A stretch of 64,000 nt of DNA from an uncultured bacterium. GTDB lineage: Bacteria > Bacillota_I > Bacilli_A > RFN20 > CAG-826. The notes beneath the pieces are model-generated. The model was not told the origin of the DNA, did not search any database, and saw nothing but the letters and a program-made list of their open reading frames with translations. This document shows, piece after piece, positions 1,135-46,999 of the stretch (within the stretch, counting starts at the first letter, position 1; each line of letters starts with the position of its first letter). The position numbers and the translations under genes were made by a program. The stretch is from NCBI GenBank assembly GCA_949299335.1, contig CASGAD010000014.1:66330-130329 (forward strand), given 5' to 3'.

Positions 1135-1850
1135 TGCAACGCTATTTCGCTTATAAAAATAAACATGATGAAATTGTTATCAACGATGATGACATTTTTC
1201 ATATTGTTAATGTAATGCGTATGAAAGAAGACGCTGAATTTGAAATAAATAATGATGGAGATATATATTTAGCAAAAGTTGATTTAGTATCGCCTTTTAA
1301 ATTTAGTCTAATCAAAAAAATAGAAGAAAATCATGAGTTAAATGGTTATATCCGTTTATTATATTGTCTTCCTAAAGGTGATAAAGTTGATTTAGTCATT
1401 CAAAAGGCAGTGGAATTAGGGGCTAATGAAATTGTTTTAATTAATAGCACTCGTTCAATCGCTAAAATAACTAATGAAAATAGGGACAAAAAAATTGCTC
1501 GTTTTAATAAAATTATTAAAGAAGCAAGTGAACAATCTAAAAGAACTAAGTTATTAAAATTAAATGATGTCATTACTTTTAAAGAGCTAAAAAATTATAA
1601 AGCTGATACTTCGTTTATCGCTTATGAAAATACAAGTTTAACTAGTAATGACTTATTAAAAGAATTGTCTTTAATTAAAGGCAAGACAGTTAACGTCATT
1701 ATTGGCGCTGAAGGTGGCATTACTAAAGAAGAACTTGATATAGCAATAAATCTAGGTTATAAAGAAATTTCATTAGGAAAAAGAATATTAAGAAGTGAAA
1801 CTGCTTGTATTTATATTCTTTCTTTATTATCTTTTTATATGGAAAATTAA
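1134..1850 (+). CDS. rsmE: 16S rRNA (uracil1498-N3)-methyltransferase RsmE
   Basis: Typical length. C-terminal motif IGAEGGITKEE...LGKRILRSETA. Lies between dnaJ and mtaB as in Bacillus. Confidence 0.85.
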   Translation: MQRYFAYKNKHDEIVINDDDIFHIVNVMRMKEDAEFEINNDGDIYLAKVDLVSPFKFSLIKKIEENHELNGYIRLLYCLPKGDKVDLVIQKAVELGANEIVLINSTRSIAKITNENRDKKIARFNKIIKEASEQSKRTKLLKLNDVITFKELKNYKADTSFIAYENTSLTSNDLLKELSLIKGKTVNVIIGAEGGITKEELDIAINLGYKEISLGKRILRSETACIYILSLLSFYMEN

Positions 1851-1851
1851 G

Positions 1852-2613
1852 ATGAAATCGTTATTTAGTATCCTTGAAAAAGAAAGAAATACCCGTAACT
1901 ACAAATATTCAGATGAAGTAGTCTTTTTTAATAAGTTCAAAGGCATGCTTAAAATTAATCCTTACTTTACTAAATACTTAGATTGTGAAAATGATTTTGA
2001 TATCATCAAAGCTAATATCATTATTAAAGCAATCATTAATAAAGAAGAATTAGATAAAATCATTAATGAAGCATATTTAAAGTATGAAAAACGTTTTATA
2101 AACAATATTAAAGAATTAATTAAAGAACAAATTAGCGATTTACCTTATATTGATTACGACAATTTTAAGGTTTATATTCCATTTTTCAATAAAGCCACCA
2201 ATATTGTTTATTCTCTTGAAAATGAAAAAATGAAAGAATATCCATATATTGAGTTAGCCAAAAAATATGAACCATTTATTGTAGAAGCTTTTGAAACTTA
2301 TACTATTGATGTTTTTGATTCGTTATTTACTCAACTTGTGAAAGTAGATGAATCAAAGACAACAATGGCTTTTTATCATTATGATTTTAATGCGATTTTT
2401 ATAATAAATAGGCAAGGAACTTTAGATAATGTCATATATTTATTTGATAAATACCTAATTAATCCTCATAAATATAATATTATTGAACGAATCAAACCTT
2501 TAATTAGAGCATATTATAATAACGATTTAGGTGAATTTGTTAATCTATTATATAAAAATGGATTTGTTAGTTATTACGTTTTTAGAAGGATTTGTAAGGT
2601 TAAAAAGATATGA
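1852..2613 (+). CDS. Hypothetical protein (253 aa from ATG 1852)
   Basis: Long ORF. ATG 1852 sits 1 nt after the rsmE stop, and the ORF's TGA overlaps the mtaB ATG. No recognisable motif. The 1795 start in the ORF track overlaps rsmE and is unlikely. Confidence 0.55.
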   Translation: MKSLFSILEKERNTRNYKYSDEVVFFNKFKGMLKINPYFTKYLDCENDFDIIKANIIIKAIINKEELDKIINEAYLKYEKRFINNIKELIKEQISDLPYIDYDNFKVYIPFFNKATNIVYSLENEKMKEYPYIELAKKYEPFIVEAFETYTIDVFDSLFTQLVKVDESKTTMAFYHYDFNAIFIINRQGTLDNVIYLFDKYLINPHKYNIIERIKPLIRAYYNNDLGEFVNLLYKNGFVSYYVFRRICKVKKI

Positions 2614-6299: not shown

Positions 6300-7490
6300 A
6301 TGAGTTATTTTATTAAACAAATTGGATTGAAAGATTGTTCCTTTGCTTGTGTAAAGATGCTTTTAGCAATGGTATATAAAAATAAAAAGTTTTTATATTA
6401 TCCTCAAATTAAAAAAGATGAATCATATTCGCTTTTAGATATTATAAAAATCGCTAAAAATGAAGGAGTTGAACTAAAAGGATATAAATATGTAACTAAA
6501 GAAAGTTTCTTCGTTCAAAAAAGATTCCCAATTTTAGTGGTACTAAAAGAAAACAATCTTTTGCATATGGTATTAGTTAAGAAAATTAAGTGTAAGAGAG
6601 TTTTAATTTATGATCCTAAAATAGGTATATATGAGTTAAAAAAAGATAAATTCCTAGAATTATGGAATAGTGAGATATTAGAGATCGAATCAATAGGTTC
6701 TTCTAATTATAAGGAGAGTTATTCATCGCCAGTACCTTTAAAAAATAAGATTATATCGTACTTTTTACAAGTTATTAGTCTATTAACTATTTTAGGTGCA
6801 ATGTTTTTCTCGAATGAAACTTATAGTTTTTATATACCATTATTGCTTTTAGTAGCTTTTGCTATTTCTGAATTTGCTTATAAAAGAGTATTAATTAGTT
6901 CTATGAAAGCTTTTGACAATCGTATTATCGAGCGTGTATTTGACGAAAAAAGAAAAGTTTTTAAAGACAAATACATTGAAATGAATAAATTTAAAACATT
7001 ATTACTTGGTAGACCAATTCAATTAATCAACTCGATAATTGTTTTAGTGGTTGGGCTAATTATTTTATCACTAAATAGTTATTTAAATCTTATTAACATT
7101 ACTTTAGTAATATCTTTGAGCATTATTCTAGAAGTTATTCAATATAAATATTTTTTAAATAGGGATGATATTAAAGTAAAGGAAAATGAGTTATTTGAAG
7201 CAGATTCATCGATTGATTACCAAAAGTCTTTAGCATTACTTCAAAATAAAGTTTATAAGCGAGTAACTTTTATTAGTTATAAAAAGTATTTAATTACTTT
7301 TTTAATTGGAGTGATTTGTCTAGTTTATGCCGCCTTTAGTGATGAGATAAGTTTGAATTTTATATTATTTCATGCGTTTATATATTCTTATATAAATGAA
7401 AATGCTACAAACATTTTAAAAATTTACTTTGAAACACCTGATTATAAGTATTCTAAGTGTTTATATAAGTATTATTGTGATGAAATTTAA
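6300..7490 (+). CDS. Peptidase-C39-domain membrane protein (like a bacteriocin-processing ABC exporter but without an ATPase domain)
   Basis: N-terminal 125 aa fit C39: Gln7, Cys13 (KDCSFAC), His89 (LLHMVLV), Asp105 (IYDP). About six hydrophobic helices follow. No Walker A/B or ABC signature. Strong SD AAGGAGG. Confidence 0.65.
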   Translation: MSYFIKQIGLKDCSFACVKMLLAMVYKNKKFLYYPQIKKDESYSLLDIIKIAKNEGVELKGYKYVTKESFFVQKRFPILVVLKENNLLHMVLVKKIKCKRVLIYDPKIGIYELKKDKFLELWNSEILEIESIGSSNYKESYSSPVPLKNKIISYFLQVISLLTILGAMFFSNETYSFYIPLLLLVAFAISEFAYKRVLISSMKAFDNRIIERVFDEKRKVFKDKYIEMNKFKTLLLGRPIQLINSIIVLVVGLIILSLNSYLNLINITLVISLSIILEVIQYKYFLNRDDIKVKENELFEADSSIDYQKSLALLQNKVYKRVTFISYKKYLITFLIGVICLVYAAFSDEISLNFILFHAFIYSYINENATNILKIYFETPDYKYSKCLYKYYCDEI

Positions 7491-9284: not shown

Positions 9285-10007
9285 ATGGAATTAATTAATG
9301 GTATTGTTGTTTCACTATCAAAATATAGAGACAATGATGCAATAATAAATGTTTTAACTCCTAATGATCTTGTCCCTATTATTATTAGAGGAGCATATTC
9401 AAAAGGTAGTAAGTATTTGCAATATGCAAAAACTTTTTATAGTGGCGAATTTGAAACCTATAAAGGACAAACAAAATATTTAAAGCTTAGAGCAGTTAAA
9501 ATAGATGAAGATTTTAATCTTCTATTTAGTGATTATAAATCTTTAATGTGCTTAGAATTAATTAAAGAACTATTTACAAAGGCTTTTTCTAGTGATTCAG
9601 TTTCAAATTTTTATCTACTTTTAAAAGTGACATTAAAAAATATTAAAGAAACGCATGAGACTCTTAAATACACTTTATTATTCGTTGCTTATTTTTTAAG
9701 AATTTCAGGCTACTCTGTAGTAGTTAATGAGTGTTCGAGTTGCCATAAAGCTGGGAAATTTGAATATTTTTCTTTTTCTAATGGTGGGTTTATTTGCAAT
9801 GAATGCAAAAATGAAAATGATATTAAACTAAATGAACAAGAAAAATGTATACTTGTAAGCTTATTTACCTATCGATATAGTGAAAATGCTAAAAATATCG
9901 ATGCTAACGATGAAATTTATTTAGGATTACTTAACATTTTGTGTGAATTTATAACGTTTTATAACAATATTAAAATTATTTCGTTAGAATTATTAAAAAT
10001 ACACTGA
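9285..10007 (+). CDS. recO: DNA repair protein RecO
   Basis: OB-fold N-terminus and Zn motif CSSC..CNEC. Position after era as in Firmicutes. Confidence 0.85.
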   Translation: MELINGIVVSLSKYRDNDAIINVLTPNDLVPIIIRGAYSKGSKYLQYAKTFYSGEFETYKGQTKYLKLRAVKIDEDFNLLFSDYKSLMCLELIKELFTKAFSSDSVSNFYLLLKVTLKNIKETHETLKYTLLFVAYFLRISGYSVVVNECSSCHKAGKFEYFSFSNGGFICNECKNENDIKLNEQEKCILVSLFTYRYSENAKNIDANDEIYLGLLNILCEFITFYNNIKIISLELLKIH

Positions 10008-10014
10008 TATTAGG

Positions 10015-10043
10015 TTGACAGAATAAATCATAATAACTATACT
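10015..10043 (+). promoter_or_regulatory. Sigma-A promoter of glyQS-dnaG-sigA
   Basis: TTGACA (10015-10020), 17-nt spacer, TATACT (10038-10043). Confidence 0.6.
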
Positions 10044-10147
10044 TATGAGCATTGAGGCTTTCGTGAAATTAGTTATGTTATTAAATACGATAGTAATTAT
10101 TTATAAAAATAATTAATTTGTTATTTAGTTAAAAGGAGATTTTTAGT

Positions 10148-11521
10148 ATGGATAATAAATTTGAAACGCTTGTAACGCATTTGCAAACAACTGGATATGT
10201 ATTTCAGGGTTCACAAATCTATGGTGGTTTAAGCAATTCATGGGATTATGGTCCTTTAGGAAGTGAGTTAAAAAACAATTTAAAGGATTTATGGTGGAAA
10301 AAATTTGTAAGTGAATCACCTACAAATGTTGGAATCGATGCTTCTATTTTGATGAATCCACGTGTTTGGCAAGCAACAGGCCACGTTTCAACTTTTAACG
10401 ATCCATTGATTGATTGTAAACATTGCCATGCACGTCATAGAGCAGATGACTTAATAAGCGAACAATTTCCAGAAGTGGATGTAAATGCTATGACTATGGA
10501 AGAAATGAGTGCATTTATTAAAGAACATGAAGTTAAATGTCCTGCTTGCGGAAAGTCTAATTTTACAGATGTTAGACAATTCAATATGATGTTTAAAACT
10601 CATATTGGTGTCACCGAAGATTCTAAAAGTGTTGTTTATCTTAGACCAGAAACAGCTCAAGGTGTTTTTGTAAACTTTAAAAACGTTCAAAGAACAACAA
10701 GAAAAAAGTTACCACTTGGTATTGCTAATGTAGGAAAATCATTTAGAAACGAAATTACTCCAGGGAACTTTATATTTAGAACTCGTGAATTTACTCAAAT
10801 GGAGCTTGAATTCTTCTGTAAACCTAATACAGATTTAGAATGGTTTAAATATTGGAAAGATTTTTCTATCGATTTTGTAAAATCTTTAGGTATTAAAGAA
10901 GAAAACTTACGTTTTAGAGATCATGAACCTGAAGAATTAGCTTTTTATTCAAAGGCAACAACTGATATCGAGTATAAATTTCCTTTTGGCTGGGGAGAAA
11001 TCTGGGGTATTGCTGATAGAACCGATTATGACTTAAAAAGGCATCAAGAATTTAGTGGTGAATCCTTAGAATATTTAGATCCAGAAACTAATGAAAAATA
11101 TATTCCTTATTGTATTGAACCAAGTTTAGGACTTGATAGATTATTTTTAATGGTAGTAACTGATAGTTATGATGAAGAAACATTAGATAATGGTGAAATT
11201 AGAAAAGTAATGCACCTTAAGCCATTCTTAGCACCATTTAAAGCAGCTATTTTACCTTTAAATAATAAATTAACAGATAAAGCATTATCTGTATTTAACG
11301 ATTTAATCCCATATATTAGGGTAAATTTTGATACAACAGGTAGTATTGGCAAAAGATATCGTAGAAATGATGAAATCGGTACACCATATTGCGTAACAAT
11401 TGATTTTGATACATTAAACGATGAATCAGTTACTGTTAGAGATCGTGACACAATGCTTCAAGAAAGAATTAAAATTTCCGATTTAAAGAATTACTTATTA
11501 GAAAAAACTTTTTATAAATGA
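10148..11521 (+). CDS. glyQS: Glycine--tRNA ligase (single-chain class II)
   Basis: Motifs [26 protein letters not shown] and GLDRL. 457 aa. SD AAAGGAG. Confidence 0.93.
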
Positions 11522-14663: not shown

Positions 14664-15350
14664 ATGATTTCTAATAGACTAAAAGCAATTGTTTCATTAA
14701 TAAAAAATGACAATAACATAGCTGATATTGGTAGCGACCATGGTTATGTGCTTTTAGAATTACGTAAAAAAGGCTTTAAGTCGAAATTATTGGGTGTTGA
14801 AAATAAAGAACACCCTTTTTTGCGTTTAAAGAAAAATATTATGGCTAGTGGAATTAAGGATATCGCTTGTAGTTTATCTAATGGATTAGATGCTTTACCT
14901 AATAATTATAAAACCATTGTTATTGCTGGAATGGGATTTGATGTAATAAAAAATATTATTTCTCAAAATATAGATAAATTAGATCATATTACCAATATTG
15001 TTATTGATTCACATACAGATAAAGATAAAGTAAGGCCATATTTTTTATCTTTAGGCTATGATGTAGAAGATGAAACTATAATTTTTGAAGATAATATTTA
15101 TTATGATTTAATTGCATTTATTAAAGTTAATAGTATTCAAAAATACTCTAAGGAAGAATTAGAATTTGGAAAAATTAATTTAAAAGCTAAATCTAGTACT
15201 TTTATTAATATGTTAAATGCTGAAATCGTTAAAAATAATGATATTATTAATAAAATTAACAACAGTAATAGTAAACGAATTAATGAACTTGAAAAGCGTA
15301 ATAATTATTTAAGAGGTATATTAAATGAAAACAAGAGCTCTATTAACTAA
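14664..15350 (+). CDS. trmK: tRNA (adenine22-N1)-methyltransferase TrmK
   Basis: ADIGSDHGY SAM-binding motif. Synteny after sigA (yqfN position). Confidence 0.8.
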   Translation: MISNRLKAIVSLIKNDNNIADIGSDHGYVLLELRKKGFKSKLLGVENKEHPFLRLKKNIMASGIKDIACSLSNGLDALPNNYKTIVIAGMGFDVIKNIISQNIDKLDHITNIVIDSHTDKDKVRPYFLSLGYDVEDETIIFEDNIYYDLIAFIKVNSIQKYSKEELEFGKINLKAKSSTFINMLNAEIVKNNDIINKINNSNSKRINELEKRNNYLRGILNENKSSIN

Positions 15351-16107
15351 ATTATCTAAATTATTTCCTAAAAAAATAGCTGAGGCTTATGATTTTCCTG
15401 GTTTACAGGTTTCAAAATTAAAAGAAGAAACCAATATAATTTTGCTTTGTTTGGACTTTGATGAAGATGTGTTAAATTATATATTAAAAAATAATTTAGA
15501 AAATAAACTCGACTTAATTATCACCCATCATCCATTTATTTTTGGTAAAAAGAAAGAAATTTTAGCTAATGATAATATAAAAAACTATCTTTACCATAAA
15601 ATGGAAGAATTAAATATTCCAATTTATAGTTTTCATACTAACTTTGATAGTGGTGTAAATGGAATGAATGATGCTCTTATTAATAAACTTGAATTATCAA
15701 ATCCTCATAGATTGATTAGTGAGCCTATGGCTTGTGGAGGGGATTTGCCTTATGAAATGACAGTAGAAGAGTTTGCTAAATATGTTTTAGATAAATTAGA
15801 TGTCGATTATGGATTACTCTTAAATTATGGTAGTAAAGTAATAAAAAACGCAGCCATTATTGGTGGAGGTGGATGGAGGAGCTTTAAAGCTGCTCAATTA
15901 GAAAGTTATGATATTTTTATTAGTGGAGATATTCCTCATCATGGTAGAAGAGATGTAGTTGCTAATAAATATAATTATTTAGACCTGCCTCATGAAGTAG
16001 AAAATATTTTTATGGAACAAATGAAAAAAATACTACTATCTTTCGATAGCAGTATCGATGTTATTTCCTTATATCAGGAACAGTTTCCCAAAGTGATTTG
16101 TAAGTGA
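15325..16107 (+). CDS. Nif3-family dinuclear metal-centre protein (YqfO-like)
   Basis: IITHHP motif, HTNFD, C-terminal HH. Synteny after trmK. Confidence 0.8.
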   Translation: MKTRALLTKLSKLFPKKIAEAYDFPGLQVSKLKEETNIILLCLDFDEDVLNYILKNNLENKLDLIITHHPFIFGKKKEILANDNIKNYLYHKMEELNIPIYSFHTNFDSGVNGMNDALINKLELSNPHRLISEPMACGGDLPYEMTVEEFAKYVLDKLDVDYGLLLNYGSKVIKNAAIIGGGGWRSFKAAQLESYDIFISGDIPHHGRRDVVANKYNYLDLPHEVENIFMEQMKKILLSFDSSIDVISLYQEQFPKVICK

Positions 16108-16978
16108 AGTAGTTATAAATATCATTTACAACATTTTGATGAACACTCCCATCAGAAACTAATAATATACGTTTCTCAGATGGGATTTTAATTTGCATAG
16201 CGTCTTTTACATCTTTAACAACGGCATAAAGTATATTTTTAGTAGTTAAGTGGTAGTATTCTAGTAGATATTTGTCATATGATGTAGTATCTGTAATGAA
16301 TATAATGACATCATTATCCTTTAAGTTTTCTTCTAAATTCTTTTTTCTATCGAAGTTTTCATCACTTATTTCATCCTCAATAACAGCATTAGGAAGTAAC
16401 TTACGAAGATAATCTAGGGAGCTATCAAAACTAGAACCAGCAAGTTCAGTTTGATATAAAATATGTGTTTTTGATTTATTGAATTTCTTTTCAGTAATAA
16501 CTGATTTAGCCTTTGCAGCATCATTTACATCATAAAATATAAAACTGAATTTTGATTCATTAGTAAGATAGTTTGCTTCTATTGTATTTGTATTACCAAC
16601 AAAAATAATATTGTATTTTCCTTTAGAATTATTGATAAAATCTAATTTTTTCTTAACATTAGGCGATAGCGTTTCAAAAAATCTAAAATGTTCTTTCTTT
16701 AAAACATTGATAGTTTCATGATCACAGCCATAAGGAGAAGTTAAAACGATTGTATCGTTATTTAAATTCTTTAAAAAATCACTAAAGCCCATTGAAGGAA
16801 TATCGACTACATCAATTCCTAATTGCTTTAATTCTTTTTTAATTGCGTTGGCATTTAATAATCCGCCTAAAAGAATGATTTTCTCATTTGGAAAGTCAAA
16901 ACGTGTTTTTCTAGCTATATTTAGTAAGTTTTCCATTGCTGGAGAATAACCAGCTGGAAGTATTAATGTTGTATCCAT
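16061..16978 (-). CDS. IspH/LytB-like protein that lacks the three [4Fe-4S] cysteine ligands (degenerate paralogue or pseudoenzyme)
   Basis: Collinear with remembered IspH motifs along its whole length: PAGYSPAMENL vs PRGFCAGVDRA, ETLSPNVKK vs DATCPLVTK, EISDENFDRK vs DICYATTNRQ, QTE vs QTT, SDGS vs AGAS. It occupies the position and opposite orientation of B. subtilis ispH (yqfP) next to yqfO. Confidence 0.55.
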   Translation of the reverse strand: MDTTLILPAGYSPAMENLLNIARKTRFDFPNEKIILLGGLLNANAIKKELKQLGIDVVDIPSMGFSDFLKNLNNDTIVLTSPYGCDHETINVLKKEHFRFFETLSPNVKKKLDFINNSKGKYNIIFVGNTNTIEANYLTNESKFSFIFYDVNDAAKAKSVITEKKFNKSKTHILYQTELAGSSFDSSLDYLRKLLPNAVIEDEISDENFDRKKNLEENLKDNDVIIFITDTTSYDKYLLEYYHLTTKNILYAVVKDVKDAMQIKIPSEKRILLVSDGSVHQNVVNDIYNYFTYKSLWETVPDIRK

Positions 16979-17036
16979 GGTAATATTTTAACATTTATAA
17001 TGAAAAAATCATCCAAATTATATAAAATTAGAAACT

Positions 17037-18395
17037 ATGAAATTCAGTGCATTTAATATTAGTAAAGATTTAGTAAAAATTTTAGAAGAAAAAGGTTATG
17101 TTGAGACCACACCAATTCAACAAGTCGTTTTATCAAAAGCATTAAAAGGTGAGAACATTGTCGCTAAAAGCGAAACTGGAAGTGGAAAGACACACGCTTT
17201 TTTAATTCCAATTATTGAAAACGCAAAAGAGTCCAATTCATTACAAGCAATTATTTTGGCTCCTTCTAGAGAATTAGCGAGACAAACTTATAAATTTGCT
17301 TGTGAGATTTGTAATGAGATTTCCTATAAAAAGATTAATGTTAAACTTTTTATAAGTGGAGAAGATTCATCTAAGGATTTAAAATCTTTTAAAAATGGTT
17401 GTAATATTTTAATTGCTACTCCCGGAAAATTAAAAAGTTTGATTGAGCAAACGGATTTCGATTTAGCACAATTAAAGACATTAGTTCTAGATGAAGCCGA
17501 TATGCTTTTAGATAGTGGATTTTTCCAAACAATTGATTCGATTATTAAAAAGTGCGATAAGAGCTTGCAAATTGAAGTTTTTAGTGCAACTATTTCTGAA
17601 GGACTGGAAGTATTTTTGAAAAAATATATTTCTCCTGATTATGTAGTTACATCTACAACAAATGAATTAACTTCAAAAACAGTTAAACATTTCTTCATTA
17701 ATACTAAACATAAAGATACACTTGAATTACTTTTAGTATTTATTAATCAATTTAACCCTTATTTATTATTGATATTTGCTAACTCCAAAAAGAAAGCTAG
17801 AGACATTTATAATTTCTTGTCACAAAACAAGATTAAATGTGGCATTTTAAGCGGTGAATTGGAAGCTAGAGAAAGAAAATCTATGCTTAGAAGAATAAAA
17901 AATGATGAATTTAGGGTTGTGGTATGTTCAGATTTGGTAAGTAGAGGTTTAGACATTGAGAATGTATCAGATGTTTTAAGTGTCGATTTACCTAATAACC
18001 TTGAATATTATTATCACCGTGCAGGAAGAACCGGAAGAAACTGCAAAACTGGAAATAGTTATGTGTTTTATGATCACGATACCTTTGATTTACCATCCAA
18101 ATTAGTTCAAGATGGACTTGAAGTAAGTTTTTTAAAACTTGATAATGGAGTTTTTGTTCCTACAAGTTCACCAATTAAGGATAAAAGAAAGGCCAAAAAA
18201 ACTCCTACCGAATTAGATTTAGAGATTAAAAAAGCTAAAATTAAAACAATGAGTAAAAAAGTTAAACCAGGCTATAAAAAGAAGGTAAAAGTTGCTATTG
18301 ATAAGGTAAAAAGAAAACATAGAAGAGAAATAATTAAAAAAGATATTAGAAGACAACGTGAAGAACGTTACATAAAAGAAAGCAAAGAAAGATAA
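17037..18395 (+). CDS. DEAD-box ATP-dependent RNA helicase (CshB/YqfR-like) with a K/R-rich tail
   Basis: Q motif, TGSGKT, DEAD (LDEADM), SAT, HRAGRTGR. Confidence 0.9.
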   Translation: MKFSAFNISKDLVKILEEKGYVETTPIQQVVLSKALKGENIVAKSETGSGKTHAFLIPIIENAKESNSLQAIILAPSRELARQTYKFACEICNEISYKKINVKLFISGEDSSKDLKSFKNGCNILIATPGKLKSLIEQTDFDLAQLKTLVLDEADMLLDSGFFQTIDSIIKKCDKSLQIEVFSATISEGLEVFLKKYISPDYVVTSTTNELTSKTVKHFFINTKHKDTLELLLVFINQFNPYLLLIFANSKKKARDIYNFLSQNKIKCGILSGELEARERKSMLRRIKNDEFRVVVCSDLVSRGLDIENVSDVLSVDLPNNLEYYYHRAGRTGRNCKTGNSYVFYDHDTFDLPSKLVQDGLEVSFLKLDNGVFVPTSSPIKDKRKAKKTPTELDLEIKKAKIKTMSKKVKPGYKKKVKVAIDKVKRKHRREIIKKDIRRQREERYIKESKER

Positions 18396-18398
18396 TTT

Positions 18399-19292
18399 AT
18401 GGTTTATAAAAGTGATGAATTGTTAATTGGAAGCCATGTTTCAATGAGTGGACCAAGATATTTTTTAGGAAGTGTAGAAGAAAGTATAAAAAATAACGCC
18501 AATACTTTAATGTTTTATACTGGTTCACCTCAATCTATGGCTCGTTCTCCAATTGAAAAATGTAAAATTAAAGAAGCACTCGCTTTAATGAATGAAAAAA
18601 ATATAGATATTAATAAAGTTGTTTGTCATGCGCCATATTTAATAAACTTAGGAAATCCAATTAATTCTGATAAATTCGTTTTTTCTAGAAATTTATTAGC
18701 TAATGAGGTTGATAGATGTCATAGTTTTAATGTTAAACTTTTAGTTTTACATCCAGGCGCCCATTTAGGCATAGGAAATGATGAAGCTATTAAAAATATA
18801 GCTCATGGTATAAACGATGTTTTATCTATGATAGATTACGATATTATAATCTGTTTGGAAACTATGGCTGGTAAAGGAACAGAAGTAGGCTCTAACTTAG
18901 AAGAAATTAAAAAAATCATCGATTTAATCGACAAAAAAGAGAAAATTGGAGTTTGTATTGATACTTGTCATTTAAACGATGCAGGTTATGATTTAAGAGA
19001 TTCAGATGCTTTTTTAAACTATTTTGATGAAGTTATCGGACTAAATTATTTAAAAGTAGTCCATCTAAATGATTCATTAAATTATAAAGGAGCACATAAG
19101 GATCGTCATGCAAATATTGGGTTAGGGACTATAGGATTTGATGTTTTAAGAAATTTTGCTTTTAATCCAAAATTAAAAGATGTTCCTAAAATATTAGAAA
19201 CACCTTATTTTAATGATAAGCCACCTTATAAATTAGAAATAGAAATGATAAGGGATGGAAATTTTATTAAAGAAAAATATTTAAATTTATAA
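18399..19292 (+). CDS. nfo: Endonuclease IV
   Basis: AP-endonuclease family 2 motifs HAPYLINL, LHPG, DTCH and HLNDS. Confidence 0.9.
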   Translation: MVYKSDELLIGSHVSMSGPRYFLGSVEESIKNNANTLMFYTGSPQSMARSPIEKCKIKEALALMNEKNIDINKVVCHAPYLINLGNPINSDKFVFSRNLLANEVDRCHSFNVKLLVLHPGAHLGIGNDEAIKNIAHGINDVLSMIDYDIIICLETMAGKGTEVGSNLEEIKKIIDLIDKKEKIGVCIDTCHLNDAGYDLRDSDAFLNYFDEVIGLNYLKVVHLNDSLNYKGAHKDRHANIGLGTIGFDVLRNFAFNPKLKDVPKILETPYFNDKPPYKLEIEMIRDGNFIKEKYLNL

Positions 19293-20342
19293 TTTATCGA
19301 TTTCTTCGAATAATGTAGGCAATGCATCTTTTTGGCTAACTGTCTTAAGGATCTTGCCTTTTTTAAATATAATAAAAGAATCTTTACCACCAGCTAGTCC
19401 AATATCTGCGTTTTTGCCTTCACCAACGCCATTAACAATGCACCCCATGATAGCAACAGTGATATATTTTTTATTTTTAATTAAATAGTTTAATGTTTCA
19501 TCTGCCATTTTAGCCGTATTTGTAACTTGGCATCTGCCACAAGTTGGACAACTAATAATAGTAGGATAATTTTCATATAATCCTAAATCATGTAATAGTC
19601 TGACACATGTTTTAATTTCTTTTTGAGGATTATGTGTTAATGAAATTCGAATCGTTGATCCTATTCCTTCTAGTATCAAAGGAGCTAAAGCACTAACTGA
19701 ACGAATAATTCCAATTTCATCATAGCCACTTTCTGTAACGCCGATATGAAGTGGATATTGAGTTTTGTTAGCGATTAATCTGTATGCATTTAAGGTTACA
19801 AGTGGATTAGAAGCTTTAACACTTATAACAATGTCATTAAAATTATAGCGTTCAAATATTTTTACATATCTTAAAGCGCTTTCGACTAATTTTTCTTCCT
19901 CACTTAATTGATTATTTTCTACTAAGTCCTTTTCTAAAGATCCTTTGTTAACGCCAATTCTAATTGGAATGTGTTTTTTCTTAGCTAAATCAATGATTGC
20001 CTCTAAACCTTCGATTCCGCCAATATTTCCTGGATTAATTCTAATTTTATCCGCTCCATTTTCCATAGCTAATAAGCCGAGTCTATAGTCAAAATGGATG
20101 TCAGCGACAATAGGAATAGCAATTTGCTTTTTTATCTCTTTTAAAGCTAAGGCATCTTCCTTATCTAGAATACTTACTCTCATTAAATCAGCACCTAAAA
20201 GGGCACATTCATTAATTTCTTTAACAACCTCATCAATTTTACTTGTTTTTATGTCACACATTGATTGAATAGCAATTTTATTATTGCCACCAATTTTTAC
20301 ATTGCCAACGATGACTTGTTTTGTTTTTTCTCTTAAGTTCAT
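19287..20342 (-). CDS. ispG: 4-hydroxy-3-methylbut-2-enyl diphosphate synthase IspG
   Basis: VADIHFDYR, RINPGNIG, IRIGVNKGSLEKDL, CPTCGRC and GCIVNGVGE are all present. Start taken at ATG 20342 (MNLREK). Confidence 0.92.
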   Translation of the reverse strand: MNLREKTKQVIVGNVKIGGNNKIAIQSMCDIKTSKIDEVVKEINECALLGADLMRVSILDKEDALALKEIKKQIAIPIVADIHFDYRLGLLAMENGADKIRINPGNIGGIEGLEAIIDLAKKKHIPIRIGVNKGSLEKDLVENNQLSEEEKLVESALRYVKIFERYNFNDIVISVKASNPLVTLNAYRLIANKTQYPLHIGVTESGYDEIGIIRSVSALAPLILEGIGSTIRISLTHNPQKEIKTCVRLLHDLGLYENYPTIISCPTCGRCQVTNTAKMADETLNYLIKNKKYITVAIMGCIVNGVGEGKNADIGLAGGKDSFIIFKKGKILKTVSQKDALPTLFEEIDKL

Positions 20343-20415
20343 ACACTTATATCTTATTAACTTCGTTAAAATTATACAATACAATAATAAAATAATAGAA
20401 AACTATCACCAAAGG

Positions 20416-30982: not shown

Positions 30983-31306
30983 ATGTACCCAAGACTCATT
31001 AATCAAATTAAAAAGGCTATTGAAAGTAAAAAAGGTGAAGACATTAAAATTTATAATGTTAAAGACAAAAATCCATTATTTGATTATGTTATCATTTGCA
31101 CAGGCTTAAATGAGAAAAACATGGATGCAATTACTTCAAATATTGAAGACACTTTGGAAGAACAATCATTTGAAGTAAAAAGTATTGAAGGCTTAGGATC
31201 AAGTGATTGGATTCTAGTTGATTGCTATGATGCAATTGTTCATATTATGTCTCAAAGCTATCGTGAGCATGTTAAATTAGATGAATTAATTAAAAATAAT
31301 AAATAA
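30983..31306 (+). CDS. rsfS: Ribosomal silencing factor RsfS
   Basis: 107 aa. DYVIICTG...WILVDCYDAIVHIM pattern. Confidence 0.9.
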   Translation: MYPRLINQIKKAIESKKGEDIKIYNVKDKNPLFDYVIICTGLNEKNMDAITSNIEDTLEEQSFEVKSIEGLGSSDWILVDCYDAIVHIMSQSYREHVKLDELIKNNK

Positions 31307-31313
31307 GAACATA

Positions 31314-31376
31314 AAAAACTCTACAAGTTATATTTATTTAATAAATTAAATAGGTAATTGTAGAGTTTTATTTTTT
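31314..31376. terminator. Bidirectional terminator-like hairpin with a long loop
   Basis: 13-bp stem AAAAACTCTACAA (31314-31326) pairs with TTGTAGAGTTTTA (31358-31370), T run at 31371-31376. The 31-nt loop is unusually long. Confidence 0.5.
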
Positions 31377-31421
31377 AAGGGAATTATTTAGTAAAAAGGT
31401 AATTGAAGTTATTTAAAATTA

Positions 31422-31449
31422 ACTTCGTATAATATCTATTATGTAATTT
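31422..31449. other. dif: dif-like Xer recombination site (chromosome dimer resolution)
   Basis: ACTTCGTATAA-TATCTA-TTATGTAATTT has the 11-6-11 layout. It matches the remembered B. subtilis dif at 23/28 positions. It lies in the convergent strand-switch gap. Confidence 0.65.
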
Positions 31450-31529
31450 TTTTGAAAATTATTACGATATAATCAATAATATATTAATAATTAAATAATT
31501 TATATTCTGTTGATAATAAAATTAATAAT

Positions 31530-31567
31530 TACTAATAAACTACTAGTTATTTACTAATTTGATACTA
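31530..31567 (-). repeat. Phased TAGTA array 4 (period 11 bp), four perfect units, starting at the stop of the 183-aa ORF
   Basis: Plus-strand TACTA at 31530, 31541, 31552 and 31563. The 18-mer ATTACTAATAAACTACTA (31528-31545) is identical to 22304-22321. Confidence 0.75.
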
Positions 31568-32116
31568 ACAAGAATATAATTTTGTATAATTATTTTTAAT
31601 TTCATCATATTTAAAGTTTAAATTAATTATATTAGAAATAAAATCTCTATAACAATTTAAGATCTTTAAAACAGTATTTTTATTTAAAAATGCGCACGGT
31701 CTAGCATCTTTAATTTTGCCATTTTCTAACTTAAATAAGTCTTTGTGAACAATCTGAATGTTTTGAATTTGAGCATAATATTCATTATCTAAAGATAAAG
31801 AATGAATTATACCTAAGTTAATACCATCTTCGCCATCAAAATAGCATTCATACTTAGTTTTAATAGGGCAAATAAGGACACTATTTTCGTATTCTCCACT
31901 ACTTTTAATAACCACCACTTTAATTGATTTTGCTTCTTTTTTATCATAGTAGCAATTATAGATTTCACCGATTAAAAAGGCTTTTTTGTCTCTATTAAAC
32001 AAGTAATTAGTTGTATATGATAAGGTGGTATTTGCCCGTTCTAATTGCCTAGTTAAAGCATTATTTTTGTCAGATTTAACAAAATATATGTTTTTTTCTT
32101 TAATTTGACTATCCAT
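31565..32116 (-). CDS. Hypothetical protein, weak PemK/MazF-like pattern
   Basis: Good SD AAGGAGAG. GEIY...KVVVI...VLICPIKTK...AQIQNIQIVHKDLF resembles the toxin pattern GD[IV]Y..RP.VV..v.v.PiT..dQirtvdk.Rl. The similarity is weak. Confidence 0.5.
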   Translation of the reverse strand: MDSQIKEKNIYFVKSDKNNALTRQLERANTTLSYTTNYLFNRDKKAFLIGEIYNCYYDKKEAKSIKVVVIKSSGEYENSVLICPIKTKYECYFDGEDGINLGIIHSLSLDNEYYAQIQNIQIVHKDLFKLENGKIKDARPCAFLNKNTVLKILNCYRDFISNIINLNFKYDEIKNNYTKLYSC

Positions 32117-32164
32117 ATATACTCTCCTTTCAGAAGATATAACAATATGGATTTTGATTTTTTT

Positions 32165-32938
32165 CTATTTTTGCAATTTTCTTTTAATTGGATACAAAAT
32201 TAAATCAATAATAATGAATACGATTATAACTAAAATTACAATCGCGAACATACTAGCATAATCAGAATCGTTTCTATAGACGTATATTAGTCGGCCAATT
32301 CCCCATAATGAGGAAGAATTAAGCAAAATTTCACTCATAATTGATACTTTTATGCCTAAAGCTATAGAATTTGTTGCTCCTAGAAGCAAAAAAGGAAAGG
32401 TTTCAGGTAAAATTACCTTAAAAAATGATTTTGGCTTATAATAGCCTTCTAAACGCAAAGACATTTGAATTGATTCACTTAAATTGTCATGCCCTGCAAT
32501 AAATGATTCATACATAATTGGAAAAATTACTATAAAAGTAACTATAAATGAACCAATCTCAAGATCTTTAAAGAAAAATAAAAAAATTATATAGACCACG
32601 CATGGAGTAGGAACTAATTTCATTAAATTAATTAAAGGAGAAATAAAATATCTAAATCCTTTAAAGTACCCTGCAATCGATCCTAATATAAAAGCTAATA
32701 AAAATGAAGCTATTAAAGAGACGAAAGTTCTTAAAAAAGAATAGCCAAAGGCAGAATATGTCGATACATTTCTTAATGACTCAAATAATGCATTAAATAA
32801 ATGGTTTAAATCAGGGAAAATTAAATTATCATTTATAATTAAAGCAATAATTTCATATAAAATTACAATGAAAAAAATTCCTAATATTTCTAGTAGGAAT
32901 TTTTTATTCTTCTTTATGAATGAGCCAATTCCTTTCAT
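32165..32938 (-). CDS. ABC transporter permease (binding-protein-dependent, NitT/TauT-like)
   Basis: Six TM helices. EAA-like loop LSESIQMSLRLEGYYKPKSFFKVILPETFP. Confidence 0.75.
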   Translation of the reverse strand: MKGIGSFIKKNKKFLLEILGIFFIVILYEIIALIINDNLIFPDLNHLFNALFESLRNVSTYSAFGYSFLRTFVSLIASFLLAFILGSIAGYFKGFRYFISPLINLMKLVPTPCVVYIIFLFFFKDLEIGSFIVTFIVIFPIMYESFIAGHDNLSESIQMSLRLEGYYKPKSFFKVILPETFPFLLLGATNSIALGIKVSIMSEILLNSSSLWGIGRLIYVYRNDSDYASMFAIVILVIIVFIIIDLILYPIKRKLQK

Positions 32939-32955
32939 AAAGTATATTTTATAAT

Positions 32956-33930
32956 TTATTTTGCTAATAAACTATTAAAAGAAGTAATTTCTTCAGTTGT
33001 GAAAGTAACATCGTTTGGAACTATACCAAAACCATTTTTACTTCCATCATTCCCTTGTACCCCTTCTAAAACGCTTGAACTAAAGCCAAAATTAGCAGAA
33101 ATGACGGTATCATCGTTATTATAGGTCTCTAATAACTCAGTTTTAACGGCTCCTGGATTTGATAATGCTTGAGAAATTGAAGCGTTTATTGATTCAAGGA
33201 CGTACTTATAAACTTCACTATTTGAAGAAATATCATTTCTTACAAATAAACCTGCTTGAGGAATATAATCTTTGCTCCAAGTGGTCACTTCTTTAATCTT
33301 AGTTTGTAAATTGATATCTAAAATTTTAATACCTTTTTTTGTTAAATTTGATTTAATTGCGGTAGCGGCTGGTTCAGCAACAACAGCATAATCAACTTGA
33401 GTGCCGTCAATTTTATAATCAGCGGTCATTGTGAGTAATTTATCTTTTAAACTACTAATAGAATCTAAATACACATCACATCCACCTGCATCTTTATAAA
33501 CAGTTTTAAATAGTAAATCTGGAGTGTTATTTTCTTGGAATCCATAAACTACATCATCTTGACTAATAGTTAATGAATCAGCATCACTTTCATCTTTATT
33601 AAAAGCAAATAGATGGAAATTGCCCCCAGTAATCATTTTTACAAACGAATATTTTGCTTCATCACCTTGTTTTTCTAATTTCGCAAGTGCTTTAGCACTA
33701 TCAAAAATAATAAATGGATAATCACCTTTACTTAATTGAGCTGGAATATTGCTTGAATCTGCTAAAACATCTACTTTTCCTTCTTCAATTAACTTATAAG
33801 TGCCTAATGTTGGTGCTCCACTAGGCATTAATAAATATTTGTCATAATCATCAGTTGTTTCTTTACTACATGATGATGCTAATAAAGCAATACATAAAAA
33901 ACTGCTTAATTTTAATAAATTAAATTTCAT
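32956..33930 (-). CDS. ABC transporter substrate-binding lipoprotein
   Basis: Signal peptide with lipobox LLASSC. About 300-aa periplasmic-binding-like domain. Adjacent to the permease. Confidence 0.65.
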   Translation of the reverse strand: MKFNLLKLSSFLCIALLASSCSKETTDDYDKYLLMPSGAPTLGTYKLIEEGKVDVLADSSNIPAQLSKGDYPFIIFDSAKALAKLEKQGDEAKYSFVKMITGGNFHLFAFNKDESDADSLTISQDDVVYGFQENNTPDLLFKTVYKDAGGCDVYLDSISSLKDKLLTMTADYKIDGTQVDYAVVAEPAATAIKSNLTKKGIKILDINLQTKIKEVTTWSKDYIPQAGLFVRNDISSNSEVYKYVLESINASISQALSNPGAVKTELLETYNNDDTVISANFGFSSSVLEGVQGNDGSKNGFGIVPNDVTFTTEEITSFNSLLAK

Positions 33931-35202: not shown

Positions 35203-36087
35203 TTATTCATCTTTCCAGAACAAATCATACGCCTCTTTTAACTTTTTTTCACTTAAATGTGTGTATATTTGTGTTGTTGAAACTTTTGCGTGTCCTAACA
35301 TTTCCTGGACTGACCTAATTTCTGCCCCATTTTCTAACAAATGAGTAGCAAAAGAATGACGGAGAGTATGTGGATGGATTGATTTTTTAATATTAGCTTT
35401 AGTGGCTAACCTTTTCACAATTAAATAAACCCTTTGTCTAGTAAAATCCTCTCCATGTTCATTAATCATTAATTTTTTTGAATGATTAATATCACGTTTA
35501 TTACGGACATATTTTATGTATTGCTTAATAGCAAATAAAGCTTCTTCTTTAATTGGAATGATCCTTTCAATATCACCCTTTCCAAGAATCTTAACTAGTC
35601 TATCTTCTTCATTAATGTCTTTTAACTTTAAATTAACGAGTTCAGAAACTCTTAATCCACAATAATAGAGTAAATCAATGATTACTTTTTCTTCTAAACC
35701 ATCACTTGTAGTTAAATCAGGAGCATTTAATAATTCTTTAATCTCGTCTTGAGTTAAATAAGTAGGTAATAGTTTTTCCTTTTTTATTCTTTCAACAGGC
35801 CCGCTAATTAAATTATGTTTTATATCTTCTTTTTCTAAAAATATATAAAAATTTTTAATGGTTGATATTCTTCTTTCTATTGAGCTAGCTTTTAATGAGT
35901 CTAATGACATTTTAAAACTAAATTCGATTAGTAAATTCTCATTTAAATCATTTACTTCTTCTAGATAAGGAAAATATTTCAAAAAGCATTTAAAGTCGTC
36001 TTTATAATCAATTAAGGTTATGTTTGATAAACCCTTTTCAAACTGGAGATAATAAAAGTATTTATCCAATGCTTCGTTTAATTTCAT
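35203..36087 (-). CDS. xerD: Tyrosine recombinase, XerC/XerD family
   Basis: RVSEL...HPHTLRHSFATHLLENGAEIRSVQEMLGH...TQIYTH catalytic motifs. 3.8 kb from the dif-like site. The C-versus-D assignment is tentative. Confidence 0.8.
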   Translation of the reverse strand: MKLNEALDKYFYYLQFEKGLSNITLIDYKDDFKCFLKYFPYLEEVNDLNENLLIEFSFKMSLDSLKASSIERRISTIKNFYIFLEKEDIKHNLISGPVERIKKEKLLPTYLTQDEIKELLNAPDLTTSDGLEEKVIIDLLYYCGLRVSELVNLKLKDINEEDRLVKILGKGDIERIIPIKEEALFAIKQYIKYVRNKRDINHSKKLMINEHGEDFTRQRVYLIVKRLATKANIKKSIHPHTLRHSFATHLLENGAEIRSVQEMLGHAKVSTTQIYTHLSEKKLKEAYDLFWKDE

Positions 36088-37291: not shown

Positions 37292-37329
37292 TACTAAATA
37301 ACTACTAGTTATATACTAATTATTTACTT
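37292..37329 (-). repeat. Phased TAGTA array 5 (period 11 bp), fills the xseB-dinB gap
   Basis: Plus-strand TACTA at 37292, 37303 and 37314. TACTT at 37325 overlaps the xseB TAA stop. Confidence 0.7.
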
Positions 37330-37503
37330 ATTTAATTTTTCTTTGGCTTTTTCAATTATTTCACCTAAATCTTTAATTAATTCTTGAGCTTCATCATATA
37401 ACTTCAAACTTTTCTCAAGATCTAATTCACCACTATCAATTTGACTTACAATTTTTGATAGTTTTTCCATTTTTTCTTCAAATGTTAACTTCTTTTCAGC
37501 CAT
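37324..37503 (-). CDS. xseB: Exodeoxyribonuclease VII small subunit (not in the ORF track, 59 aa)
   Basis: Hand translation gives MAEKKLTFEEKMEKLSKIVSQIDSGELDLEKSLKLYDEAQELIKDLGEIIEKAKEKLNK. Starts 1 nt after the xseA stop. Confidence 0.88.
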   Translation of the reverse strand: MAEKKLTFEEKMEKLSKIVSQIDSGELDLEKSLKLYDEAQELIKDLGEIIEKAKEKLNK

Positions 37504-37504
37504 C

Positions 37505-38707: not shown

Positions 38708-39128
38708 CTTTTAAACAACTTTGCAATATGGCGTTGACATATTTATAGTCTTTTTCTCCGCCATCGCCAAATTTTTTAGCAAACTTTACTGCGTTATTAA
38801 TGATAATAGCTTTATCAACTTTTTCTTCAACGAAATAATATTCTGCAACACTAACAATAAAAATTGCTTGAATAACAAGATTTAATCTATGAAATTCCCA
38901 ATTTTTAAGATATTTAGAGACACAAGTAATAATTTCGTTTTGATGTTTTAAAGAATTTAACAAAGTTTCCTTTAAATATATGTCACACTCTTCATAAGGA
39001 GCATCACAAGCATTTGAAATGGCATTTTCAAAATTAATTGGATTATTTGTTTCTTCTAACATCAAAAACGAGTACATGAGTTGAATTGCTATCTCATGCA
39101 ATTTAGCACGATTAATTTCTTTTGACAT
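38670..39128 (-). CDS. nusB: Transcription antitermination factor NusB
   Basis: NusB-like helical pattern. Synteny asp23-nusB-xseA. Start taken at ATG 39128 (MSKEINRAK). Overlaps xseA by 38 nt. Confidence 0.8.
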   Translation of the reverse strand: MSKEINRAKLHEIAIQLMYSFLMLEETNNPINFENAISNACDAPYEECDIYLKETLLNSLKHQNEIITCVSKYLKNWEFHRLNLVIQAIFIVSVAEYYFVEEKVDKAIIINNAVKFAKKFGDGGEKDYKYVNAILQSCLKDGTRELLFDNAN

Positions 39129-39129
39129 A

Positions 39130-39450: not shown

Positions 39451-39451
39451 A

Positions 39452-46964: not shown

Positions 46965-46999
46965 AATTAAGTCCTCAAATAAATAATATAACAAATAAA

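What the first reader, a model, noticed from the sequence alone, without database searches (positions are those of the whole stretch)
16061..16978. Full-length IspH/LytB-like ORF with all three Fe-S cysteine ligands replaced, next to an intact-looking ispG
The 305-aa product is collinear with IspH along its whole length, but the catalytic residues are gone:
- PAGYSPAMENL vs PRGFCAGVDRA (Cys12 to Ser).
- ETLSPNVKK vs DATCPLVTK (Cys96 to Ser).
- EISDENFDRK vs DICYATTNRQ (Cys197 to Ser).
- LLNAN vs VVHN and TSPYG vs SAHG (His41 and His74 lost).
- GNTNTIE vs GHAGHPE (His124 lost, Glu126 kept).
- TDTTSYDK vs GSKNSSNS.

The gene sits at the position and opposite orientation of B. subtilis ispH (yqfP), beside yqfO/nif3. 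By contrast, ispG 2.3 kb away keeps all its hallmark motifs, including CPTCGRC and GCIVNGVGE.

An uninterrupted ORF with serines at all three ligand positions suggests a repurposed pseudoenzyme rather than a decaying pseudogene. It also raises the question of how HMBPP made by IspG is consumed.
Basis: partly seen in the sequence, partly recalled or inferred. Interest (0 to 1): 0.6.

Follow-up and report, generated by a model that had tools for sequence, protein, structure and literature searches.

The report
Iron-sulfur-free IspH look-alike under selection
At the spot where relatives keep the last enzyme of the bacterial isoprenoid (MEP) pathway, this uncultured gut bacterium has an intact, conserved copy that has lost all three iron-sulfur-binding cysteines, so it must do something other than the known reaction.

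Summary
The 305-aa ORF (16061-16978, minus strand) is a full-length LytB/IspH-fold protein. The evidence is Pfam 61 bits, HHalign 99.96% against canonical IspH, and an AF2 model with pLDDT 90 whose top PDB match is E. coli IspH.

All three cluster cysteines are Ser/Thr. His41, His74 and His124 are Asn, Tyr and Thr, and the SxN diphosphate loop is gone. Glu126, Gln166, Thr167 and Ser269 are kept.

It is not a pseudogene:
- About 18 clusters (45-86% identity) in uncultured gut and rumen Bacilli share these replacements.
- dN/dS is 0.10, the same as the neighbouring genes.
- Invariant residues concentrate around the old active site.
- The upstream promoter region is strongly conserved.

Relatives carry a canonical, Cys-bearing ispH at this exact site, so this is the diverged positional orthologue. 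A second lineage made the same three Cys-to-Ser changes independently and also lost ispG.

The function is unknown. My best guess is a non-redox ligand- or cation-binding role in a remodelled acidic pocket.

IspG here is intact. I could not determine whether a second, canonical ispH exists elsewhere in this genome. Relatives have one in a thioesterase-ispH-uppS/dxs cluster. I found no description of such a protein in the literature I searched.

The parts
16061..16978 (-). Coding sequence of the Cys-less LytB/IspH-fold protein (305 aa). Pocket residues: S12, N42, P82-Y83-G84, S105, N129/N131/T132/E134, Q176-T177-E178, S205-D206, D276-G277-S278.
   Evidence: dN/dS 0.099.
16979..17036 (.). 58-bp divergent intergenic region between this gene and cshB. 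It is 84% conserved across family loci whose proteins are only 45% identical. It holds an extended -10 element, TGTTAAAAT, at 16993-16985 on the minus strand. That element ends 7 nt before the ATG, which suggests a leaderless mRNA.
   Evidence: Sequence and alignment. The region is not conserved in loci with canonical ispH. The promoter reading is an inference from consensus. The generic scan did not list this site on the minus strand.
16029..16056 (-). Terminator-like hairpin followed by a T-run, starting 5 nt after the stop codon. It lies inside the 3' end of the convergent nif3 gene.
   Evidence: 1 site found against 0.2 expected from shuffles.
15325..16107 (+). nif3/yqfO homologue. It is convergent with the LytB-like gene and overlaps its 3' end by 47 bp.
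   Evidence: PF01784, 172 bits.
17037..18395 (+). DEAD-box helicase (cshB-like), divergently transcribed from the LytB-like gene.
   Evidence: PF00270, PF00271.
19287..20342 (-). Intact ispG/gcpE, 351 aa from the ATG at 20342. The mechanical ORF extends to a TTG at 20384.
   Evidence: It is 68-89% identical in all family loci, with dN/dS 0.07.

Best explanation
This is the diverged positional orthologue of ispH. It keeps the three-lobed IspH fold, cannot hold the [4Fe-4S] cluster, and so cannot carry out the known reduction of HMBPP.

It is maintained by purifying selection for a different, non-redox job. That job still uses the central cavity. Where the cluster and the diphosphate-binding histidines sat, the family now has a conserved hydroxyl- and carboxylate-rich pocket: S12, N42, Y83, S105, T132, E134, Q176, S/T177, E178, S205, D206, D276, S278.

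I infer that this pocket binds a divalent cation or a cationic or polyol-type small ligand rather than a bare diphosphate. I infer further that the protein acts as a ligand-binding, regulatory or sensor protein, or as a non-redox enzyme.

HMBPP made by the intact IspG is then most likely reduced by a separate canonical IspH encoded elsewhere, as in relatives that carry a thioesterase-ispH-uppS/dxs cluster.

Shown: fold, loss of ligands, selection, positional orthology, and an independent recurrence.
Inferred: absence of a cluster, the nature of the ligand, the regulatory role, and the existence of a second ispH.
For: Fold and homology.

Loss of all three Cys and all three His across 17 family sequences, with the new residues themselves conserved.

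Purifying selection equal to the neighbouring genes.

Conservation concentrated at the old active-site loops: p=0.004.

Conserved upstream promoter region and a terminator-like site.

Canonical IspH at the same site in relatives: L017, L019, L023-L040. In the tree the family is monophyletic (100/100) and lies beside those sequences.

Independent recurrence in P0081:
- It clusters with canonical P0196/197/200 at 100/100 bootstraps and never with this family.
- It has Ser at all three Cys positions.
- All 10 canonical invariants that it changed lie within the 14 changed in this family (Fisher p=2e-4). Four changes are identical: C12S, A73P, C96S, C197S.
- Its locus has lost ispG.
- The ORF is still intact. 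In neutral simulations, 0 of 400 runs stay stop-free at comparable divergence.
- It is as similar to its sister sequence as the neighbouring genes are.

From the literature: E126 and H124 mutants of E. coli IspH are nearly inactive, and the reaction runs on the cluster (PMC8837944).

Fe-S enzymes are otherwise retained in the window: IspG and a radical-SAM MtaB-like gene. The Cys loss is therefore specific to this protein.

A canonical ispH away from the ancestral site exists in relatives. One of them co-occurs with a family member in the same sheep-rumen BioSample and the same metagenome assembly.
Against: - No direct evidence of what the protein binds or does.
- The acidic-pocket reading rests on homology to E. 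coli IspH positions. I had no coordinates of the model, so nothing was measured.
- I could not show a second canonical ispH in any genome that carries this family. Contig-length fingerprints, protein accessions and tetranucleotide composition all failed to link the two.
- ispG has stayed intact and highly conserved next to this gene in every family locus. That would also fit a role that still involves HMBPP.
- P0081 is a single sequence from a single contig.
Confidence: 0.6

Rival explanations
1. The protein still handles HMBPP but without a Cys-ligated cluster. Two versions are possible. In one it is a new kind of HMBPP-converting enzyme, for example Mg2+-dependent chemistry on the allylic diphosphate through the new carboxylates, or a cofactor held by non-Cys ligands. 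In the other it is an HMBPP-binding sensor or sequestering protein, and HMBPP is an end product of a truncated pathway.
For: - ispG is intact, adjacent and strongly conserved in all family loci.
- The residues that contact the HMBPP hydroxyl in E. coli, E126 and T167, are kept, as are Q166 and S269 (PMC8837944).
- No second ispH could be tied to these genomes.
- The literature notes Mollicutes with MEP pathways that lack the final enzymes (PMC13001223).
Against: - All three His and the SxN loop that bind the diphosphate are gone or variable.
- Position 12 is Thr in some members and position 105 is Cys in one. That argues against these positions acting as ligands.
- The independent Cys-less lineage lost ispG but kept the protein, so at least there the retained role does not need HMBPP.
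- Canonical ispH paralogues at another locus exist in the same clade and the same samples.
Confidence: 0.2
2. Pure scaffold or moonlighting role. IspH in this clade has a second, cluster-independent function, such as a protein-protein or ribosome/RelA-linked role as proposed for lytB and for IspH-RPS1 fusions. Only that role survives here, and the pocket conservation is structural.
For: - Two independent lineages keep the fold after losing the catalytic residues.
- The literature raises a link between IspH and the ribosome and RelA (PMC4746011).
Against: - The new pocket residues (Y83, D206, D276, E178, N42) are invariant or nearly so within the family. That looks like a binding site rather than filler.
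- P0081 does not share most of these residues.
- No partner is indicated by the gene neighbourhood, which is simply inherited from ispH.
Confidence: 0.15
3. It is a decaying pseudogene or an alignment artefact, and the serines are chance.
For: The NCBIfam IspH equivalogs score only 37-58 bits against cutoffs of 188-624. phmmer against PDB sequences finds nothing.
Against: - dN/dS is 0.10.
- 17 intact orthologues down to 45% identity carry the same replacements.
- HHalign probability is 99.96%.
- The predicted fold is confident and matches IspH.
- The promoter region is conserved.
Confidence: 0.02

Closest known systems
Canonical IspH/LytB, HMBPP reductase (EC 1.17.7.4; E. coli 3F7T/3KE8, A. 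aeolicus 3DNF, P. falciparum 4N7B; Pfam PF02401, TIGR00216)
   Same: - Same three-domain trefoil fold and the same length.
- Collinear over about 285 residues.
- Same chromosomal position as ispH in relatives and, from my own knowledge, in B. subtilis (yqfP).
- Keeps E126, Q166, T167 and S269.
   Different: - None of the three cluster cysteines is present.
- His41, His74 and His124 are replaced, and the SxN loop is lost.
- New invariant residues Y83, D206 and D276, and nearly invariant E178.
- TIGR00216 scores 47 bits against a cutoff of 188.
- About 25% identity to canonical relatives.
Second, independent Cys-less IspH (P0081, locus L018, from an uncultured relative)
   Same: - Ser at all three Cys positions, and the A73P change.
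- Loss of H41, N42, H74 and N227.
- Same genomic site.
   Different: - Separate origin: it is sister to canonical P0196-P0200.
- Keeps H124 and T168.
- Much less diverged: TIGR00216 scores 138 bits.
- Its locus has lost ispG.
- Only one sequence is known.
IspH paralogue pairs, such as M. tuberculosis LytB1/LytB2 (PMC4550268), and the thioesterase-ispH-uppS/dxs-linked ispH of relatives (L020, L041, L042)
   Same: They show that LytB genes can exist as non-equivalent copies at different loci within one lineage. That offers a route by which one copy could be freed to diverge.
   Different: Those paralogues keep all three Cys and the catalytic residues. Co-residence with the Cys-less form in one genome is not shown here.
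Truncated or partial MEP pathways: Listeria lacking or defective in ispG/ispH, and M. gallisepticum and M. tullyi lacking the final enzymes (review PMC13001223)
   Same: Host-associated Bacillota or Mollicutes in which the end of the MEP pathway is remodelled.
   Different: There the genes are absent or defective. Here a full-length, selected IspH-fold protein persists beside an intact ispG.
Fe-S enzyme homologues that lost the cluster and took on a non-catalytic role, e.g. IRP2 relative to aconitase/IRP1 (from my own knowledge, not tested here)
   Same: An enzyme fold is retained, the cluster and activity are lost, and a new binding function is under selection. This is a 'works like' analogy only.
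   Different: The fold and lineage are unrelated. No regulatory function has been demonstrated for this protein.

Membership tests
LytB/IspH superfamily (Pfam PF02401) | Full-length match to the LYTB profile above the gathering score | tested here: met
   61.4 bits against a cutoff of 24.5, covering residues 16-290. HHalign gives 99.96% against canonical IspH.
LytB/IspH superfamily (Pfam PF02401) | Three-domain trefoil fold | tested here: met
   AF2 model with pLDDT 89.9. Foldseek's top 12 PDB hits are all IspH, with E down to 2e-14 and TM 0.58-0.68.
IspH, HMBPP reductase (equivalog TIGR00216 / NF002187) | Score above the curated equivalog cutoff | tested here: not met
   TIGR00216 scores 47.4 against 187.85. 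NF002187 scores 58 against 276.
IspH, HMBPP reductase | Three cysteines that ligate the [4Fe-4S] cluster (E. coli C12, C96, C197) | tested here: not met
   These positions are S12, S105 and S205. Across the family they are S/T, S (one C) and S.
IspH, HMBPP reductase | Diphosphate-binding and proton-relay residues H41, H74, H124 and S225-x-N227 | tested here: not met
   These are N42, Y83 and T132, and the SxN loop is variable.
IspH, HMBPP reductase | E126, T167 (with Q166) and S269 | tested here: met
   E134, Q176 and S/T177 are retained across the family. S278 is retained in 16 of 17 members; one has T.
IspH, HMBPP reductase | Catalyses HMBPP to IPP/DMAPP and binds an Fe-S cluster | not testable with these tools
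   This needs biochemistry or complementation.
Pseudoenzyme / neofunctionalised enzyme homologue | Homologous to an enzyme, lacks its catalytic residues, yet is under purifying selection | tested here: met
   The family holds 17 intact members at 45-86% identity.
Positional orthologue of ispH | Occupies the nif3-cshB site where relatives have canonical ispH, and groups with those sequences in a tree | tested here: met
   for the site. for the tree (neighbour-joining; the deep branching is only approximate).

The most novel reading that the evidence does not exclude
These gut and rumen Bacilli have no canonical IspH at all. They run the MEP pathway to HMBPP with a strongly conserved IspG. In that case one of two things is true. 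Either the Cys-less protein is a previously unknown, iron-sulfur-independent way of using or converting HMBPP, or HMBPP, a potent activator of primate V-gamma-9/V-delta-2 T cells, is itself an end product that this protein binds or senses.
Probability: 0.15. Interest if true: 0.9.

Novelty: new variant of a known kind. Interest (0 to 1): 0.62.

Why it matters
IspH is treated as an obligate [4Fe-4S] enzyme and as a drug target.

A whole clade keeps the fold under selection after discarding the cluster ligands, and a second lineage does the same independently. Together these say that the IspH scaffold has a use beyond HMBPP reduction. These proteins are natural separation-of-function variants for testing the long-suspected non-catalytic roles of lytB.

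There are two practical consequences:
- Pfam- or KEGG-style annotation will score these genomes as having a complete MEP pathway when the 'ispH' found cannot be a reductase.
- If no second ispH exists, the organisms would be HMBPP producers in the gut, which matters for host immunity.

Tried and rejected
- phmmer of the single protein against PDB sequences found nothing. The family profile gave only a marginal E of 0.02. Profile-profile and fold comparison were needed.
- The weak Pfam Helicase_C hit (22.5 bits, below the 23.5 cutoff) was taken as generic alpha/beta similarity.
- I made several attempts to show a second canonical ispH in the same genome:
  - Look-ups of canonical relatives P0211 and P0215 showed that they sit at the ancestral site in other species.
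  - P0278, P0226 and P0208 sit in a thioesterase-ispH-uppS/dxs cluster.
  - No shared contig length and no neighbouring protein accession linked them to a genome of this family.
  - Tetranucleotide composition did not discriminate. Same-genome windows correlate at 0.987-0.992, and different species reach similar values.
  - Only co-occurrence in one sheep-rumen BioSample and one assembly was found.
- A cluster held by Ser, Asp or Glu ligands was considered and judged unlikely, because position 12 is Thr in some members.
- The pseudogene and misalignment readings were rejected.
- A check of one CGG codon in ValRS against 1GAX was uninformative.
- Full-text searches for an IspH-like or LytB-like Cys-less homologue found nothing relevant.
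Residues 64-236 agree with the PDB alignment, and the key columns agree with 143 database sequences.

Full report
**What is there.** The window has about 29% G+C and reads cleanly with TGA as a stop codon. The ORF at 16061-16978 on the minus strand encodes 305 aa.

- Pfam LYTB matches it end to end at 61.4 bits, against a cutoff of 24.5.
- NCBI's IspH equivalog models score only 37-58 bits, against cutoffs of 188-624.
- A single-sequence search of PDB sequences finds nothing. The family profile reaches E. coli IspH only marginally.
- A profile-profile comparison of the family (A1) with 22 canonical IspH (A2) gives probability 99.96%, E 7.5e-39, over 285 columns.
- An AlphaFold2 model built on the family alignment is confident: pLDDT 89.9, pTM 0.84. 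Its only significant PDB matches are IspH from E. coli, P. falciparum and A. aeolicus.

| E. coli IspH | This protein | Note |
|---|---|---|
| C12 | S12 | Thr in some family members |
| C96 | S105 | Cys in one member |
| C197 | S205 | invariant |
| H41 | N42 | |
| H74 | Y83 | invariant |
| H124 | T132 | |
| S225-x-N227 loop | variable | |
| E126 | E134 | kept |
| Q166 | Q176 | kept |
| T167 | T/S177 | kept |
| S269 | S278 | kept |

New invariant or nearly invariant residues appear at or beside the old active-site positions: P82, D206, D276, G277 and E178. The canonical sequences are essentially invariant for C/H/H/C/H/E/Q/C/S-x-N/S. According to the review read (PMC8837944), the reaction takes place on the cluster, and E126 and H124 mutants are nearly dead. 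This protein therefore cannot be a conventional HMBPP reductase.

**It is a selected gene, not a relic.** A search of 5.8 billion proteins found 18 clusters at 45-100% identity, all carrying the LYTB domain. Seventeen full-length members share the replacements.

The genome collection places them in uncultured gut and rumen MAGs labelled Bacilli, Mollicutes or Candidatus Onthovivens. NCBI files that genus under Bacilli. I believe GTDB puts it in the order RFN20, but that is from memory and unverified.

- Against the 86%-identical orthologue (L010), dN/dS is 0.099. Compare nif3 0.091, cshB 0.090 and ispG 0.069. dS is about 1.
- Invariant residues are three times more frequent within two residues of the former active-site positions than elsewhere: 13 of 48 against 27 of 257, Fisher p=0.004.
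- The 58-bp region between this gene and the divergent cshB is 84% conserved across loci whose proteins are only 45% identical.
- That region contains TGTTAAAAT ending 7 nt before the ATG. This is an extended -10 element placed for a leaderless transcript. That reading is my inference.
- The region is not conserved in relatives that have canonical ispH.
- A terminator-like hairpin follows the stop codon.

**Origin.** The gene order is recO-glyS-dnaG-sigA-trmK-nif3-[gene, opposite strand]-cshB-nfo-[ispG, opposite strand]-rpmG-MBL-efp. From my own knowledge, this is the B. subtilis yqf arrangement.

Related uncultured Bacilli have a Cys-bearing IspH at exactly this site: L017, L019, L023-L030 and L031-L040. 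In a neighbour-joining tree the family is monophyletic (100/100) and lies next to those site-resident canonical sequences. It is therefore the diverged positional orthologue of ispH.

TIGR00216 scores (cutoff 187.85) form a gradient:

| Protein | Type | Bits |
|---|---|---|
| P0200 | canonical, ancestral site | 238 |
| P0278 | canonical, uppS-linked | 199 |
| P0208 | canonical, uppS-linked | 193 |
| P0050 | canonical, ancestral site | 183 |
| P0211 | canonical, ancestral site | 176 |
| P0215 | canonical, ancestral site | 174 |
| P0054 | canonical, locus not examined | 171 |
| P0081 | independent Cys-less variant | 138 |
| window protein | this family | 47 |

**A second, independent case.** Among the profile hits, P0081 also has Ser at all three Cys positions.

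- Its nearest relatives, at 47% identity, are canonical.
- It groups with them in 100 of 100 bootstraps and never with this family.
- Of 26 columns that are at least 90% conserved in 143 canonical IspH, this family changed 14 and P0081 changed 10. All 10 lie within the 14 (Fisher p=2e-4). Four changes are identical: C12S, A73P, C96S, C197S.
- The P0081 locus (L018) has the same synteny but no ispG. There nfo abuts rpmG, and tblastn finds no remnant. Its sister L019 keeps both ispG and a canonical ispH.
- P0081 is as similar to its sister (46%) as dnaG is (45%), and more similar than cshB or trmK (37%).
- Neutral mutation simulations never kept the ORF open at comparable divergence: 0 of 400 runs.

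So the fold has twice been retained after catalysis was discarded, once without any source of HMBPP. The caveat is that P0081 is one sequence from one contig.

**The HMBPP question.** IspG in the window passes its equivalog cutoff, 418 bits against 345. It is present, adjacent and 68-89% identical in every family locus examined. The window also encodes a radical-SAM MtaB-like enzyme, so Fe-S proteins in general are retained. The window holds no dxs, dxr or ispDEF.

A published reconstruction of RFN20 and RF39 genomes reports the MEP genes as generally present (PMC7301438). Such annotation would count this protein as IspH.

In the same clade a different, canonical ispH lies in a 4HBT-thioesterase-ispH-uppS cluster with dxs nearby:
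- L020 and L041, labelled Ca. Onthovivens sp..
- L042-L044, from sheep rumen, 45% identical to the former.

A family member (P0312) occurs in the same NCBI sheep-rumen metagenome assembly and the same BioSample as that canonical gene. That is co-occurrence, not linkage.

I found no shared contig, no neighbouring accession and no compositional signal that ties the two to one genome. Whether these genomes have a working IspH remains open.

**Interpretation.** The best-supported reading is a neofunctionalised, cluster-free IspH-fold protein whose central pocket has been rebuilt.

- The histidines and the SxN loop that grip the diphosphate are replaced.
- Three new carboxylates (D206, D276, E178) join the retained E134.
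- The result is a hydroxyl- and carboxylate-rich site better suited to a cation or a polar or cationic ligand.

This is inferred from positional homology. I had no model coordinates. What the protein does is unknown. A regulatory or ligand-sensing role and a non-redox enzymatic role are both possible.

The rival reading, that it still acts on or senses HMBPP, keeps real weight. ispG is so well conserved beside it, and the hydroxyl-contacting E126 and T167 are retained.

**Novelty.** Full-text searches found no description of a Cys-less IspH homologue. The nearest literature concerns:
- Cys-bearing paralogues (PMC4550268).
- IspH-RPS1 fusions, with a proposed link to the ribosome and RelA (PMC4746011).
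- Truncated MEP pathways in Listeria and some Mollicutes (PMC13001223).

I rate this a new variant of a known kind.

Noticed in passing
window 44694-46994 (-), codon 679; also CGG codons in ORFs 31565-32116, 47000-48550 and 55797-58385: CGG is very rare: 4 of about 20,000 codons. The one in rel/relA aligns with the conserved Trp of the 'IEVNW' motif in PDB 8fr8. A 2026 NAR paper lists Onthovivens among genera with a predicted CGG Arg-to-Trp reassignment (PMC13092985). The LytB-like gene contains no CGG.
   Followed up: partly
locus L018 (Logan ERR13731099 contig), gene at 10001-10876: An independent IspH variant (P0081) has Ser at all three Cys positions. It sits in a locus that has lost ispG, and its sister locus L019 is fully canonical.
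   Followed up: yes
loci L020 and L041 (10001-10870), L042 (10001-10861): Relatives carry a canonical ispH in a conserved 4HBT-thioesterase-ispH-uppS cluster with dxs nearby. This is away from the ancestral nif3-cshB site.
   Followed up: partly
proteins P0219 and P0289 (canonical, Cys-bearing IspH at the ancestral site in relatives): NCBI names these 'hypothetical protein'. Close relatives P0215, P0211 and P0050 score 174-183 bits, just under the TIGR00216 cutoff of 187.85. Even functional-looking IspH in this clade escapes automatic naming.
   Followed up: partly
window about 31300-32200: GC skew changes sign near 32 kb. Genes run rightward before it and leftward after it, as at a replication terminus. 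A Xer-type recombinase gene lies at 35203-36087 on the minus strand.
   Followed up: no
window 16979-17036: Both divergent genes, the LytB-like gene and cshB, have -10-like elements only a few bases from their start codons and no obvious Shine-Dalgarno sequence. This suggests leaderless transcripts.
   Followed up: partly
window 48586-51495 (-); also 1795-2613 (+), 31565-32116 (-), 32956-33930 (-), 62932-63873 (-): A 969-aa ORF between ruvB and recJ has no Pfam hit on record. Four smaller ORFs also have none.
   Followed up: no
window 37300-41449 (-): The order is tkt, a 106-aa ORF, nusB, xseA, xseB, followed directly by dinB. From my memory, B. subtilis has ispA and dxs after xseB. Neither is here.
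   Followed up: no
window 6300-7490 (+): A 396-aa protein with only a Peptidase_C39 domain sits between rpsU and ybeY in this genome and in all relatives examined.
   Followed up: no
window 19287-20384 (-): The mechanical ORF for ispG starts at a TTG 14 codons upstream of the ATG at 20342. Gene callers use the ATG (351 aa) in all related contigs.
   Followed up: no
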